From the human T2T-CHM13v2.0 reference genome, Homo sapiens, in the NCBI RefSeq assembly GCF_009914755.1, contig NC_060927.1: 64,000 nucleotides of DNA. One strand, written 5' to 3'. This document shows positions 22,698 through 30,030 of this stretch, piece by piece (position 1 is the stretch's first letter; each line of letters starts with the position of its first letter). Under the pieces are notes generated by a model. The model was not told the origin of the DNA. It saw only the letters and a list, made by a program, of their open reading frames with translations, and did not search any database. The translations under genes and the position numbers were made by a program.

Positions 22698-22967
22698 CTC
22701 CAGGTATACCACCCAGGGCATCACCAAGGTGGCCACCAGCAAGTCTGCCACAGCCAGGCTCACTACTAAGTAGTTGGTGGTAGTCTGCAGGGCCCGCTCC
22801 TTCAGCACAGCCATGCACACCAGGCCATTGCCGAAGACGATGGCCAGGATGAGCGCGCAGTAGGAGAGGGCATAGTAGGCATGTGGGCGGGCCTGGCTGG
22901 CACCTGTGGAGTTCTCTGCCCCACAGGTGTAGTTCAGGTGGCTACTCAGCTGGCTCAGAGATGCCAT
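22698..22967 (-). CDS. DRD3: Dopamine D3 receptor, first coding exon (codons 1-90: N-terminus, TM1, TM2); Ser9 allele
   Basis: Translates [54 protein letters not shown]...[26 protein letters not shown], the recognised DRD3 N-terminus with class A GPCR GN and LAxAD motifs. Strong Kozak (gctATGG). Donor GAG|GTGAGT at 22698/22697. Acceptor ctcacAG| at 23003/23002 gives 35 nt of UTR in this exon. Confidence 0.98.
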
Positions 22968-23084
22968 AGCCCAGAGGGAGGTGCGTGATGCCAAGGGGCT
23001 TCCTGTGAGGAGACAGAAAACAATATTAATAAAATCAGACTCTTTGGGGCTTGGTTGCTTAGTTACATTTTTTTATTTATTGCA

Positions 23085-23620
23085 TCAGCAAATATTTATT
23101 GAGCATTTTCTATATAGTAGGCACTGTTGTGAGAGTTGGAGATAGAGCAATGAACAAAACAGATAAAATTTTAATTCCTTCCCTTTGAAGCTCCCATTCT
23201 AGAGGAGAAGACAGATAATAAACAAGATAAATAAAAGATGTGGTGTGTTCAATAATGATACGTATATTGGAGACAAATCAGAGAGGCAGGTAAGTAACGG
23301 GTGAAGATTGTGCGTATGTGAGTGAGTATCTGAGTATAATCAGGAACTCCTCATGGAGAAATCAGCAATTGAGTCTTGACCTGGAGGAGATCAGGAAGCA
23401 GACCATGCAGTTATCAGATGTGATAGCAGTCTGAGCAGTGAGAACAACACGGGCCAGCAGGAAGGGCTAGCACATAGAAGTCACAGGAGGGAGTCTGGTG
23501 AGGCTGGAGCCAAGTGAGGCAGGAGTAGAATAGGAGGGTGTGAGGTAGACAGATTGTGCAGGGCTATTGAAAGTACCATGCTTGGACTCTGAGTGAGATG
23601 GGAAGCTGTTGCAGGATTAC
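23085..23620. mobile_element. L2 fragment immediately upstream of the first coding exon
   Basis: cagcaaatatttattgagc terminus and typical L2 body. Confidence 0.6.
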
Positions 23621-23930
23621 AATCCCAGCTCTGCTGCTTCCTAACTCTGGGACCTTATGCATATTACTTTACCTCTCTGAGCTCCAGATTCTTCCCATGT
23701 AAAATGTGGGAATAATGAAACCCATCTATCTTAGTCCATTTTGGGTTGCTATAACAGAACACCTGAGTCTGGGTAATTTATAAAGAGCAGAAATTTATTG
23801 TCTCACAGTTCTGAAGGCTAGGGGAAGACATAAGGCCTGTGACTTAGGGAGTAACCCTGAAACCCAAGCAAAAGTGACTCTTGCCCCAAGCTCTAGAGGA
23901 GGTGCTATAGAGGAGTCCACTCTGGTCTTC

Positions 23931-24296
23931 TGCTGTGGTCTCGGTGTTTGTGTCTCCCTAAATTCATATGTAGAAATCCTAATTCCCAATATGATGGTAT
24001 TAGGAGGTGGGGGTCTTTGAGAGGTGATTAGGTTATGAGGGCAGAGCCCTCATGAATAAGATTAGTGCTTTTATAAAAGAGACCCAGAGAGCTAGCTAAT
24101 CTCTTTCACCATGGGAAGACATAGTGAAAAGACAGCCATCTATGAACCAGAAAGCAGGCCCTCACCAGACACTGAATCTTCTGGTGCCTTGATCTTGGAC
24201 TTCCCAGCCTTCAGAACTGTCAAAAATAGATATCTGTTGTTTATAAACTACTCAGTTTATGGTATTTTGTGATAGCAGCCCAAAAGGACTAAGGCA
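23931..24296 (+). mobile_element. MLT1A/MST-type MaLR LTR
   Basis: tgctgtggtc...gagccctcatgaataagattagtgc...gatagcagcccaaaaggactaaggca. Confidence 0.82.
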
Positions 24297-26788: not shown

Positions 26789-27292
26789 CAGTGTTAGGAG
26801 TTAAAAGTGGATAGGAGGTAAAAGAATAGAGAAGGCAGAGAAATAGAAGATTACTCTTGGCGTCAGTCTTTTAAGATTCATTACATATAACACTACTTAC
26901 ACATTTTAATGAGCTTTTAAATGCCTTACAAAGTATTGATTTATCTTGGTCTTTATAGTTTGTTCTGGCATCTCTTAGAGTGAGTGCATAACCTATTTAA
27001 AAAGGCAGGGGAACAGAGAGTTGTCAGGTCCCCATCAGTTATGACATTTGTCCTGCTTTGCTGATGTTCAATCCCTCAGTGCTGAATAACAGTCTTCCTG
27101 AAACATTCGTGGGGTTCCTCCTTAGCACCTCATTAAGACTTACAGAGTTTTAATTATTTGTTCTCTTTCTGTAAGAAAACAAATGAAGATGAAGACAACT
27201 ACATCTGGGCTACTACTGTGTGGCAAGTATGAGTACTTTACATGCATTTTAATACTTATAGCAGCATGGAAGTTGACGTTAGTCATTCCCAG

Positions 27293-27600
27293 CCCTGCTT
27301 GGGGGCTCATTCCTGTAATCCCAGCACTTTGGGAGGCTGAGATGGAAGGATCACTTGAGGCCAGGAGTTTGAGATCAGCCTGGGCAACATAGTGAGACTC
27401 CATCTTTGCAAAAATAAAAGAAAAGAAAAATTAGCTGCGTGTGATGCCATGTGCCTGTATTCCCAGCTACTCGAAAGACTGAGGCAGGAAGATTGCTTGA
27501 GTCCAGGAGTTAGAGGCTGCAGTGAACTATAATTGTGCCACTGCACTCCAGCCTGGGTGACAGAGCAAGATCCTGTCTCAAAGTAAAAAAAAACCCACAA
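27293..27600 (+). mobile_element. AluJ
   Basis: Diverged Alu with J diagnostics (gaggccaggagtt, gaggctgcagtga). Confidence 0.88.
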
Positions 27601-29631
27601 AACTGTCATTCCCGAGTTGAGATGGATTTTACTCAACCCAGAACAAAACGCTTCAGTAACAGGGTTCCATGACCACATCTTCACTCATTTCACAGATCTC
27701 TGGCTGTTGCTACATCTAATCTTTTACTCAGACGACTCCTGACCACCAGTCGCCAGAGCTTTTCTGGTCTGGGCTGTAATTCGGACTTGCTATATTGCCT
27801 GATAAAATTAATAATTATAGCTAAAATTTATAAGCATTATCATCATTCAACCTCACAACAACCTGATGAAGAAGGTAAGCACTATTATCCTATCAAGTTT
27901 TCTAGATAAAAAAGGTGAGTCACAGAGAGGTTAAATATCTTGCTGAGATCACAAACCAGTAAATGATGGAGTTGATTCAACCCAAGATTTGTCTGATTCC
28001 AGAGCTCATGTTCTTAACTATGCCACTTAACTATGCCACTTTTTGGGGTGAGGCAGACAAATGTGAAATGGGTACTAATTTTACAATCTCACTTGTTCAG
28101 AGTATGTGAACATGTCACATCATCTGACTAGGCTTGGTGAAGTAATGCAGGTGCACACTGCTCATAGAGCCAGTGGGAGTTACATTGTTATTATTATTAG
28201 AGATAGTCTTTAGCATTTCTATGCTACTTTCTTCTTGCAAATTGCTGCCTATTTTCCTGAAAAAGATTCACAAATGGATTGCAATACATAGCATATTTAT
28301 GTATTTGGGCACATTTACATTGTTGGTAAATGTACAGAGAAAAACTATTGCTGGTTACTGAGTAGCTAAGATAACAGTTTTTTCCCCTCATTAAACCTGA
28401 CTAGTAAAGCAGAGCATACTCACTTTCCTTCACAACCTCTAGAGACTGAGCATCCTACCATTCTAATCAGAGATAAAATGGGGAACTCAGCAAATAAATC
28501 AATCAATAAGCAAATATTAATTGATGACAAACTTCAATGCATTAGAAATTGAATCTGATATTGAGTAGAAACTGTTCGGTATTTGCTTTAATGTATATTC
28601 CATAACAAATAGCCTTCTGTATGGATGCTTTAATATTAGGCACCCATTTGGATACTGTCAGTATTTTCCTTGCTCAATACCCTTGCTCACTGCTAGCCAT
28701 ACAGACCCTTGAAAATATTCAACTACAAATAAATGAGTGCCGAGTAAGAATCTTTCTCACATTGTCTCTACTTCTCCTTGACTATAAGACATCCTAATGC
28801 CATGTCAAGCAGTGGTTCTTCACTCTTATCTAAGGACAGATATTTTACAGACCTTTTAGTATCAGTAAGCAAAGGCTTCACCTATAAAGTGAAATAGTCA
28901 TGCACAATGAGTTTAGAATCCAAGTTTCACTTTGCTATTGCTGCATTATTATTCATGCATGTATTTTGATGGTATTCAATTAAACTAAATGCATGAACTG
29001 GAACAAATACCTAATTGCAATGACTTCTGTTGCCCCAGTAAGCTACAGCAAGTAATGGAAGTCTCACAATTAAATAACAATACCCTAAAAATCATATACC
29101 ATCATCAAAGGAAACATACACAATCATCATCTCAAGTACTACATATCTCTGCTGGGAATAATTGGATTCTGACTTAGAAACAGCCTGACTTTAAATAGAC
29201 CATTGAAAATAGTGCCTCTCCAAACCTTCAGCTCTGAATTGCCAGGGTGCTGAATTGAGGAGTTTAAAATAACAGACCCTTACAATTAAGTAAAATCCTT
29301 AAGAGGAATACAATCAACTTCCATACAAATCCTAGAAATAATAACAGCTTTTTGTTTTCTATCTTTTAATTCTTCCTTGATATAGCTTCTAGAGCCCACA
29401 AGGATACAATTTTGGGGGAAAAAATAAAAGAAAAAGGAATATAAAAGGTTTCTGCTGTCCAACCACTTAGAAGAAAAAGAAAACCATTTCCTCAGGGCTT
29501 TGGTTTTTAAATAAGAGTGGATATTGAGTTTTAATGCATATTTTTAGAGATCCACAGAACCCCAAGCTGATTAAATAACCTTGAGGAAAATACTATGTCC
29601 TAAATTAGAAACGAAAAGAAAAATTACTTAC

Positions 29632-30030
29632 CCTAAAATTTTCTTCTGATTTCTGGAGACCGAGGAGTTTACCACTTCGGCTCCTGCAGCCATTTACTGA
29701 TAGCAGACATACCCAAGCAAAGCAAACTTTGCCTTTCTCAGGACTCAGAAACTATGAAATGAACAGAAAGAAATCACCCATTTTTGCCTCTAAGGTGAAA
29801 TTACTTGAGTGCTGCTTTTCCAGCTTCCCTATTAGACCTTAGTGCATGTTTCATAGCTGCTTTCGAATGTATCCGTTTTCTTTAGAGGATTTGGGAGGGA
29901 CCCTAAACTGAGCGTTGCTTGGGTCAGCCGCTCAGAGGTTCTGTCCTTGGTGCTGAAAGAGGGATGGAGTAGGCATAGGCAGTATCCGTTTTCTACCTCG
30001 CTCTCTTTTCCTCTTTGTCTCTCTATCTGC
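29632..30030 (-). other. DRD3: DRD3 non-coding 5'UTR exon / proximal promoter; internal acceptor at 29751 would define a 120-nt exon for upstream-initiated isoforms
   Basis: Consensus donor AGG|GTAAGT at 29632/29631. Polypyrimidine tract plus AG (tttctttctgttcatttcatAG|) ending at 29752. Consistent with my recollection of the DRD3 structure. The TSS/5' boundary is approximate. Confidence 0.75.
29937..29957 (-). promoter_or_regulatory. RE1/NRSE (REST binding site)
   Basis: TTCAGCACCAAGGACAGAACC matches the consensus TTCAGCACCACGGACAGCGCC at 18/21 positions, in exon 1 of a neuronal gene. Confidence 0.88.

What the first reader, a model, noticed from the sequence alone, without database searches (positions are those of the whole stretch)
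22942..29693. The Ser9Gly base toggles the stop codon of a spliced uORF overlapping the DRD3 start
Seen: an ATG at 29693 (minus strand, context taaATGG) in the 5'UTR exon reads open across the 29632-to-23002 splice. It lies 97 nt upstream of the main ATG and out of frame with it, encoding [40 protein letters not shown] (40 aa). Its stop TAG (22944-22942) uses as its middle base the A of Ser9 codon AGC (22943). Established: this is the position of the common Ser9Gly variant rs6280 (AGC>GGC). On a Gly9 allele TAG becomes TGG. By manual scan this frame then has no stop through the rest of the exon and ends only at TGA 10800-10798 in the next exon, giving a 135-aa alternative-frame product. Inference: a variant usually treated as missense may also be a stop-gain/loss in an overlapping ORF, affecting reinitiation, NMD, receptor yield or an alt-protein. 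I do not know of a prior description but cannot check the literature.
Basis: partly seen in the sequence, partly recalled or inferred. Interest (0 to 1): 0.82.

Follow-up and report, generated by a model that had tools for sequence, protein, structure and literature searches.

The report
DRD3 overlapping uORF ended by rs6280
The well-known DRD3 Ser9Gly base really is the middle letter of the stop codon of an upstream reading frame that overlaps the receptor's start, but nothing in the sequence suggests this is more than a chance overlap with at most a small effect.

Summary
On the RefSeq splice 29632/23002, the ATG at 29693 opens a 40-codon frame that overlaps the DRD3 start. It ends at TAG 22944-22942, whose middle A (22943) is the first base of Ser9 AGC. 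Past that TAG the frame stays open to TGA 10800-10798, which would give 135 codons.

It does not exceed chance. 17.8% of 5000 shuffled leaders give such an overlapping ORF in that frame. 25% of 5000 synonymous shuffles give an open run at least as long.

This ATG is the sixth of six upstream ATGs, has a pyrimidine at -3, and lies inside another uORF. On both alleles the frame ends after the main ATG and more than 55 nt before a later exon junction. Large allele differences in reinitiation or NMD are therefore not expected.

Gly is ancestral and Ser derived (PMC8922960), so the common Ser allele is a stop-gain in this frame.

Missense variants that are stop gains or losses in an overlapping ORF are a known class (OpenVar, nORFs). 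My searches found no description of this particular case. Translation and conservation could not be tested.

The parts
29691..29693 (-). Upstream ATG no. 6 (uATG6). Context taaATGg: T at -3, G at +4. It lies 97 nt before the main ATG, directly after an in-frame TAA (29696-29694).
29632..29693 (-). Exon-1 part of the overlapping uORF (20 codons plus 2 bases), ending at the GT donor after 29632.
22942..23002 (-). Exon-2 part of the overlapping uORF, including its stop TAG at 22944-22942. It spans the main ATG at 22967-22965.
22943..22943 (-). First base of Ser9 codon AGC and middle base of the uORF's TAG. This is the inferred position of rs6280. The window carries A, the derived Ser allele.
   Evidence: PMC8922960 (passages) for allele identity and polarity
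22698..22941 (-). Alt-frame extension within exon 2 (81 codons plus 1 base), read only if the TAG is TGG. It has no Pfam family at the curated cut-off.
10798..10838 (-). Alt-frame extension in exon 3, ending at TGA 10800-10798, 72 nt before the exon 3/4 junction.
29669..29710 (-). uORF5 (ggtATGt, 13 codons, TAA 29671-29669). It runs across uATG6 and ends 72 nt before the main ATG.
29752..29781 (-). uORF4 (aaaATGg, the best initiation context of the six, 9 codons). Its stop lies 41 nt before uATG5, 58 nt before uATG6 and 155 nt before the main ATG.
26901..27168 (-). Alternative leader exon of other transcripts. If it sits between 29632 and 23002, the uORF ends at TAA 27152-27150 (26 codons) and no longer reaches the coding sequence or rs6280.
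   Evidence: the exon combinations are my assumption from the hub's exon list

Best explanation
This is an ordinary out-of-frame overlapping uORF in a leader crowded with upstream ATGs. The RefSeq DRD3 leader (431 nt) has six upstream ATGs. The last one (29693) opens the only frame that runs over the receptor's start. Any ribosome that starts there passes the main AUG in the wrong frame and is lost to receptor synthesis on either allele. So, to the extent it is used at all, it acts as an allele-independent brake. Access to the main AUG comes from leaky scanning past a middling start context, or from reinitiation after the short uORFs 4 and 5, of which uORF5 carries ribosomes across uATG6. The derived Ser allele of rs6280 placed a TAG 24 nt after the main AUG in this frame. 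That shortens a by-product peptide from 135 to 40 residues. The peptide is most likely non-functional, and the expected effect on receptor yield is small. Shown here: the sequence anatomy, the distances and the chance expectations. Inferred: how the start is used, the repression, and the lack of an allele effect.
For: Six uATGs with their contexts and stops were listed. Only uORF6 overlaps the coding sequence. uORF5 spans uATG6 and ends 72 nt before the main ATG. The main ATG has G at -3 and G at +4, while uATG6 has T at -3. Both possible stops lie after the main AUG and more than 55 nt before a later exon junction (244 and 72 nt). 17.8% of 5000 leader shuffles give an overlapping ORF in the same frame. 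25.1% of 5000 synonymous shuffles give an open run of at least 94 codons. The alt-frame read is 42% Gly, Leu and Pro, and its highest 19-residue hydropathy is 0.55. Its only Pfam match has E 0.051 and 14 bits against a cut-off of 27. A review states that an out-of-frame uORF overlapping the main ORF typically represses, and that the main ORF is reached only when that uORF is skipped (PMC10275272, passages). The stop-creating Ser allele is derived and common: T at 0.52-0.60 in seven North African samples, and T-bearing haplotypes raised everywhere except sub-Saharan Africa (PMC8922960, passages). That is hard to square with an important 135-residue product.
Against: No data on translation such as Ribo-seq or mass spectrometry could be consulted, so use of uATG6 is unknown. 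No other mammalian sequence was available, so conservation of uATG6 and of the open frame is untested. On the Ser allele the stop lies only 24 nt after the main AUG. That is within the roughly 20-30 nt range where limited backward movement and reinitiation are known for viral TURBS-type cases (PMC10275272, passages), so a small Ser-specific gain in receptor synthesis is not excluded. The Ser haplotype has been reported to show signs of positive selection (Costas 2009, as described in PMC4896960 and PMC11725983, passages), and the target of that selection is unknown. In-silico folding gave the G allele 0.7-2.6 kcal/mol more stability, with AUG accessibility changing in opposite directions depending on the window folded. 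This is inconclusive rather than negative.
Confidence: 0.55

Rival explanations
1. uATG6 is essentially never used in vivo. Scanning ribosomes are caught by uORFs 1-5, with uORF5 carrying them past uATG6, or they leak past its weak -3 position. The 40/135-codon ORF would then exist only on paper and have no effect on either allele.
For: Five ATGs precede it. uORF4 has the best context (A at -3, G at +4). uORF5 (G at -3) starts 17 nt before uATG6 and ends 22 nt after it. An overlapping ORF in this frame appears in 17.8% of shuffled leaders. In transcripts that include exon 26901-27168 the ORF would not reach the coding sequence.
Against: uATG6 has G at +4, so it is not a poor site by the Kozak rule (established knowledge). 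Ribosomes resuming scanning after the 9-codon uORF4 reach uATG5 after 41 nt and uATG6 after 58 nt, distances at which some reinitiation is plausible. The alternative distal-exon leader keeps uATG5 and uATG6 and has only three earlier ATGs (exon combination assumed).
Confidence: 0.3
2. One reading: the allele and the uORF interact. On Ser, termination 24 nt past the main AUG allows backward reinitiation, or changes NMD or ribosome traffic. On Gly, ribosomes run 95 codons further. Receptor yield from the native mRNA would then differ by allele.
For: The TAG starts at +24 from the main AUG, within the range where retrograde reinitiation is documented in viral systems (PMC10275272, passages). The stop context is TAG followed by C. 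The Ser haplotype has been reported as positively selected (PMC4896960 and PMC11725983, passages).
Against: The uORF overlaps the main AUG on both alleles, and both stops meet the NMD distance rule. Reinitiation after a 40-codon ORF without a dedicated RNA element is inefficient (established knowledge; the review notes that the requirements in cellular mRNAs are unknown). Use of uATG6 is itself unproven. The functional differences between Ser and Gly receptors described in the reviews read here (higher dopamine affinity and stronger signalling for Gly; PMC8922960, PMC5562332) are attributed to the receptor protein. From recall they were measured with transfected cDNA, and I could not read those primary papers.
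Confidence: 0.12
3. The ancestral 135-residue alt-frame protein is a functional second product of DRD3 (dual coding), and the Ser allele is a common natural truncation of it.
For: The frame is open for 135 codons across an exon junction on the ancestral allele (polarity from PMC8922960). Functional alt-frame proteins inside coding sequences are known, for example altFUS (PMC7788448, abstract in the listing).
Against: The open run is not longer than synonymous shuffles give (25.1%). There is no Pfam domain, the composition is rich in Gly, Leu and Pro, and there is no hydrophobic segment. A truncating allele at about 50% or more outside sub-Saharan Africa (PMC8922960) argues against constraint.
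Confidence: 0.03

Closest known systems
Out-of-frame overlapping uORFs (oORFs), as in the second uORF of ATF4-type leaders
   Same: An AUG in the leader opens a frame that ends downstream of the main AUG, out of frame with it. It is preceded by short uORFs (9 and 13 codons) from which ribosomes could reinitiate. The expected action is repression of the main ORF (PMC10275272, passages).
   Different: No stress-dependent regulation or translation has been shown. There are six uATGs rather than the clean two-uORF layout. The short uORF5 overlaps the start of the inhibitory ORF. The comparison with ATF4 comes from my own knowledge, not from a test.
Variants that are missense or synonymous in the annotated coding sequence but stop gains or losses in an overlapping alternative ORF (OpenVar, PMC9375913; nORFs.org, PMC7849405)
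   Same: This is the same logical class. The OpenVar paper tabulates HEY2 variants that are missense in the canonical ORF and stop-gained in the altORF (passages). [quoted passage not shown]
   Different: Here the variant is a very common, heavily studied pharmacogenetic SNP, and the ORF is a spliced uORF overlapping the start codon. I found no DRD3 or rs6280 entry in the nORFs supplements that were searchable. That search covered 13 held files, but two of the paper's files were not searched.
The 36-codon DRD3 leader uORF with Lys9Glu at -204A>G (Sivagnanasundaram et al. 2000, as described in PMC3738444)
   Same: It is a uORF in a DRD3 5' leader, with a polymorphism proposed to change receptor translation and reported to be related to schizophrenia.
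   Different: It is a different ORF. The one here has 40 codons, with Asn at codon 9. None of the ORFs in the RefSeq-based leaders I assembled has 36 codons or Lys/Glu at codon 9. The original paper is not held, so its leader structure could not be compared.
uORF stop-altering variants in 5'UTRs (PMC7943595)
   Same: Gain or change of a uORF stop codon is treated there as a functional variant class under selection (abstract).
   Different: In a control re-analysis, that study removed uORF variants overlapping annotated coding sequence and its scores stayed essentially unchanged (passage). Here the stop lies inside the coding sequence.

Membership tests
Overlapping upstream ORF (oORF) | AUG in the annotated 5' leader, upstream of the main AUG | tested here: met
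   ATG at 29693, 97 nt upstream in the spliced NM_000796.6 leader.
Overlapping upstream ORF (oORF) | Out of frame with the main ORF and ending downstream of the main AUG | tested here: met
   Frame offset 2. TAG at 22944-22942 starts at +24 from the main AUG. Otherwise the frame ends at TGA 10800-10798.
Overlapping upstream ORF (oORF) | Lies on a real spliced transcript | tested here: inconclusive
   GT and AG consensus at 29632/23002, and the junction is in the RefSeq table supplied by the hub. No RNA data could be consulted. With exon 26901-27168 included, the ORF ends early.
Overlapping upstream ORF (oORF) | Ribosomes initiate at the upstream AUG | not testable with these tools
   No Ribo-seq or TI-seq resource was available. 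Context only: T at -3 and G at +4.
ATF4/GCN4-type delayed-reinitiation leader | A short upstream uORF that permits reinitiation, followed by an inhibitory uORF overlapping the main start | tested here: inconclusive
   uORF4 (9 codons, strong context) lies 58 nt before uATG6 and 155 nt before the main ATG, and uORF6 overlaps the start. The layout is compatible but crowded by uORFs 1-3 and 5.
ATF4/GCN4-type delayed-reinitiation leader | Main-ORF translation induced when eIF2-alpha is phosphorylated | not testable with these tools
   This needs an experiment.
Dual-coding gene with a functional alt-frame protein | Alt frame open for longer than the coding sequence's own constraints explain | tested here: not met
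   25.1% of 5000 synonymous shuffles give a run of at least 94 codons.
Dual-coding gene with a functional alt-frame protein | Recognisable domain or protein-like properties | tested here: not met
   The only Pfam match has E 0.051 and 14 bits against a cut-off of 27 (81 of the 135 residues scanned). 42% Gly, Leu and Pro, and no hydrophobic segment.
Dual-coding gene with a functional alt-frame protein | Conservation or purifying selection on the alt frame | not testable with these tools
   No vertebrate genomes are held. Indirectly, the truncating Ser allele is derived and common (PMC8922960).
NMD-triggering uORF with allele-specific effect | The stop codon's position relative to the last exon junction differs in kind between the alleles | tested here: not met
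   The TAG lies 244 nt before the exon 2/3 junction and the TGA 72 nt before the exon 3/4 junction. Both exceed 50-55 nt (the rule is established knowledge).

The most novel reading that the evidence does not exclude
The derived Ser allele turned a long overlapping ORF, in which ribosomes run on for 95 more codons, into one that ends 24 nt after the receptor's AUG. Post-termination ribosomes might then slip back and reinitiate on the receptor frame. Native Ser9 mRNAs would yield more D3 receptor than Gly9 mRNAs. That would be a translational effect invisible in every cDNA-based assay of this SNP, and a possible target of the reported selection on the Ser haplotype.
Probability: 0.06. Interest if true: 0.75.

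Novelty: new member of a known kind. Interest (0 to 1): 0.33.

Why it matters
rs6280 is one of the most often genotyped variants in psychiatric genetics and pharmacogenetics, and it is always read as a simple amino-acid change. If the overlapping frame were translated, assays that use the coding cDNA without the native leader would miss part of the allele's effect. That could bear on the inconsistent association literature. As it stands, the overlap is a correct sequence fact and a cheap hypothesis to test. But chance levels, the geometry on both alleles, and the high frequency of the stop-creating allele all point to little or no consequence.

Tried and rejected
1. I looked for the published 36-codon DRD3 uORF (Lys9Glu, -204A>G; PMC3738444) to see whether it is the same ORF. 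It is not among the ORFs of the RefSeq-based leaders or of the contiguous genomic leader. A scan of 22968-51000 on the minus strand found 7 contiguous ORFs of 30-40 codons with Lys or Glu at codon 9. Two of them have 36 codons (starts at 42711 and 25365). Neither fits the -204 numbering with a GT donor (read by eye), so the published uORF was not located. The original paper is not held.

2. In-silico folding of A against G at 22943 in three windows. The G allele was 0.7-2.6 kcal/mol more stable, and main-AUG accessibility moved in opposite directions depending on the window. I rejected this as evidence either way.

3. A Pfam scan of the 81-residue exon-2 part of the extension gave nothing at the curated cut-off.

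4. Literature.
- rs6280 + uORF: 0 papers.
- DRD3 + uORF, and DRD3 + upstream open reading frame: 3 papers each. Where DRD3's uORF is discussed at all, it is the 36-codon one.
- DRD3 + Lys9Glu: 1 paper, the same review.
- Ser9Gly + stop codon: 5 papers. I read only the top hit, where the stop codon refers to the D3nf splice form. The other four were judged from their titles.
- rs6280 + open reading frame: 7 papers. I checked two, both unrelated. The rest were judged from their titles, and several match rs628031 by word start.
- The broad searches did not require DRD3. In one search only the review already read mentions the D3 receptor, and none of the listed papers contains DRD3.

5. nORFs supplements: no DRD3 or rs6280 in the files searched, but two files were not searched.

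6. Earlier-findings search was not open.

7. The primary functional papers on Ser9Gly (PMC1502303, PMC1735614) are not held.

8. Conservation in other species could not be attempted, because no vertebrate sequence collection is available in these tools.
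Full report
**Observation.** I read the three exons on the minus strand and assembled the RefSeq transcript given by the hub (exons 30027-29632, 23002-22698, 10838-10726) in a script.
- The junctions have canonical GT and AG.
- The leader is 431 nt, and the main ATG is at 22967 in a strong context (G at -3, G at +4).
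- The ATG at 29693 (taaATGg) lies 97 nt upstream, out of frame. It reads 40 codons across the 29632/23002 junction to TAG 22944-22942.
- Codon 9 of the receptor is AGC at 22943-22941, so the TAG's middle base is the first base of Ser9.
- Reading on past the TAG, the frame has no stop for 94 codons and ends at TGA 10800-10798, which is codon 136.

An in-frame TAA sits directly before the ATG and the frame has no internal Met. This ATG is thus the only AUG that can open the frame.

**Identity and polarity of the variant.** PMC8922960 (passages) describes rs6280 as a C-to-T change, Gly9Ser, with C (Gly) ancestral and T (Ser) derived.
- It reports T at 0.52-0.60 in seven North African samples.
- It reports that T-bearing haplotypes have risen in all populations except sub-Saharan Africans.
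- On the minus strand the only single-base Ser/Gly change at AGC is A to G at 22943, so the assignment follows.
- From memory, not from a call: the classical BalI/MscI typing site TGGCCA would be created at exactly this spot by the G allele, which fits.

The window (CHM13) carries the derived Ser allele. The correct description is therefore that the ancestral mRNA has a 135-codon overlapping frame and the derived allele is a stop-gain in it. Two reviews (PMC4896960; PMC11725983) relay the report of Costas et al. 2009 that the Ser haplotype shows signs of positive selection. I did not see that primary paper.

**Surroundings.** The leader holds six upstream ATGs.

| uORF | ATG position | Codons | Note |
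|---|---|---|---|
| 1 | 29976 | 14 | |
| 2 | 29854 | 17 | |
| 3 | 29847 | 2 | |
| 4 | 29781 | 9 | aaaATGg, the best context |
| 5 | 29710 | 13 | ggtATGt |
| 6 | 29693 | 40 | the one at issue |

- Only uORF6 reaches the coding sequence.
- uORF5 starts 17 nt before uATG6 and ends at TAA 29671-29669, 72 nt before the main ATG. Ribosomes translating uORF5 are carried over uATG6 and could reinitiate at the receptor start.
- After uORF4, scanning ribosomes meet uATG5 at 41 nt, uATG6 at 58 nt and the main ATG at 155 nt.

This layout resembles delayed-reinitiation leaders of the ATF4 type (my knowledge, untested here). It is crowded, however, and nothing shows that it is regulated.

I also assembled the other exon combinations suggested by the hub's list. 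These combinations are my assumption.
- The distal-exon leader (50208-50342 joined to 29751-29632) keeps uORF5 and uORF6.
- Any transcript that includes exon 26901-27168 ends uORF6 at TAA 27152-27150 after 26 codons. The link to rs6280 is then lost.

**Is it more than chance?** No.
- In 5000 dinucleotide-preserving shuffles of the leader, 17.8% gave an ATG-started ORF in this same frame running into the coding sequence. Any such ORF must end at this TAG, because it is the first stop in that frame.
- 34.0% of those shuffles gave some out-of-frame overlapping uORF. The mean number of uATGs was 4.6 against 6 observed.
- In 5000 shuffles that keep the receptor's amino-acid sequence and codon usage, 25.1% had an open run of at least 94 codons in that frame. 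The mean number of stops was 3.5 against 3 observed.
- The alt-frame read is 42% Gly, Leu and Pro and has no hydrophobic segment.
- Its 81-residue exon-2 part has no Pfam family at the curated cut-off (best E 0.051, 14 bits against 27).

**Mechanism.** A review of termination-reinitiation (PMC10275272, passages) makes two relevant points.
- An out-of-frame uORF that overlaps the main ORF typically represses, and the main ORF is reached only when that uORF is skipped.
- Limited backward movement is known where stop and start lie within about 20-30 nt, in viral RNAs that carry a dedicated element.

Here the ORF overlaps the main AUG on both alleles, so a ribosome that starts at 29693 is lost to the receptor frame either way. 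The two stops lie 244 nt before the exon 2/3 junction (TAG) and 72 nt before the exon 3/4 junction (TGA). Both satisfy the 50-55 nt NMD rule (established knowledge), so no difference in kind in NMD is predicted.

The differences that remain are the length of the by-product (40 against 135 residues) and the position of termination. On Ser, the TAG begins at +24 from the main AUG. That leaves a small opening for retrograde reinitiation. Predicted RNA folding differs only slightly between the alleles and in inconsistent directions.

My best reading (0.55) is a chance-level overlapping uORF. At most it is an allele-independent brake, and the SNP changes only a non-functional by-product.

| Rival reading | Confidence |
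|---|---|
| uATG6 is not used at all | 0.30 |
| A real interaction between allele and uORF changes receptor yield | 0.12 |
| The 135-residue alt-frame protein is functional | 0.03 |

**Comparison with what is known.** The class is established.
- OpenVar (PMC9375913, passages) tabulates variants that are missense in the canonical ORF and stop-gained in an overlapping altORF.
- OpenProt predicts every AUG ORF of at least 30 codons in RefSeq and Ensembl transcripts (PMC7779043, passage). This ORF should therefore already be enumerated there. That is an inference; I could not query the database.
- A DRD3 leader uORF is in print: a 36-codon uORF with Lys9Glu at -204A>G (Sivagnanasundaram 2000, as summarised in PMC3738444). 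It is not this ORF, which has 40 codons and Asn at codon 9. I could not place it on the sequence.

**Prior description of this case.** I found none. The searches were:
- rs6280 + uORF: 0 papers.
- DRD3 + uORF or upstream open reading frame: 3 papers each, none on this ORF (with 8, 9, 16).
- DRD3 + Lys9Glu: 1 paper, the same review.
- Ser9Gly + stop codon: 5 papers. The one I opened was unrelated, and the other four were judged from their titles.
- rs6280 + open reading frame: 7 papers. The two I opened were unrelated, and the rest were judged from their titles.
- The searchable nORFs supplements held no DRD3 or rs6280 entry, but two files were not searched.
They could hold relevant rows.

The library lacks most subscription journals, so absence here is weak evidence.

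**Verdict.** This is a new member of a known kind. It is a cheap hypothesis to test on a much-studied SNP, but the prior for a meaningful effect is low. What is missing is any evidence on translation of uATG6, cross-species conservation, and isoform usage in striatum. None of these could be examined with the tools at hand.

Noticed in passing
window 29669-29781 (minus strand): A strong-context 9-codon uORF4 is followed by uORF5, which straddles the start of the overlapping uORF6. This is a reinitiation-type layout, reminiscent of ATF4-like leaders, in the DRD3 5'UTR.
   Followed up: partly
window 25255-25365 and 42601-42711 (minus strand): Two contiguous 36-codon ATG ORFs, with Glu (start at 25365) or Lys (start at 42711) at codon 9. 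These are the only candidates I found for the published 36-codon Lys9Glu DRD3 uORF. Neither lies in a RefSeq exon, and neither fits the -204 numbering.
   Followed up: partly
window 23171-23197 (minus strand, intron 1 of NM_000796.6): If the leader were unspliced genomic sequence, positions -204 to -206 fall in the TAA stop of an 8-codon ORF (ATG at 23197). The published -204/-205 A/G SNP numbering therefore does not give a Lys codon in this assembly under contiguous numbering.
   Followed up: partly
window 26901-27168 (minus strand): The alternative leader exon carries seven more upstream ATGs. If included, it ends uORF6 early, so the link between the uORF and rs6280 depends on the isoform.
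   Followed up: partly
window 22941-22944 (minus strand): The uORF stop is TAG followed by C. From general knowledge, C at +4 is the weaker termination context, so some readthrough into the long frame is conceivable even on the Ser allele.
   Followed up: no
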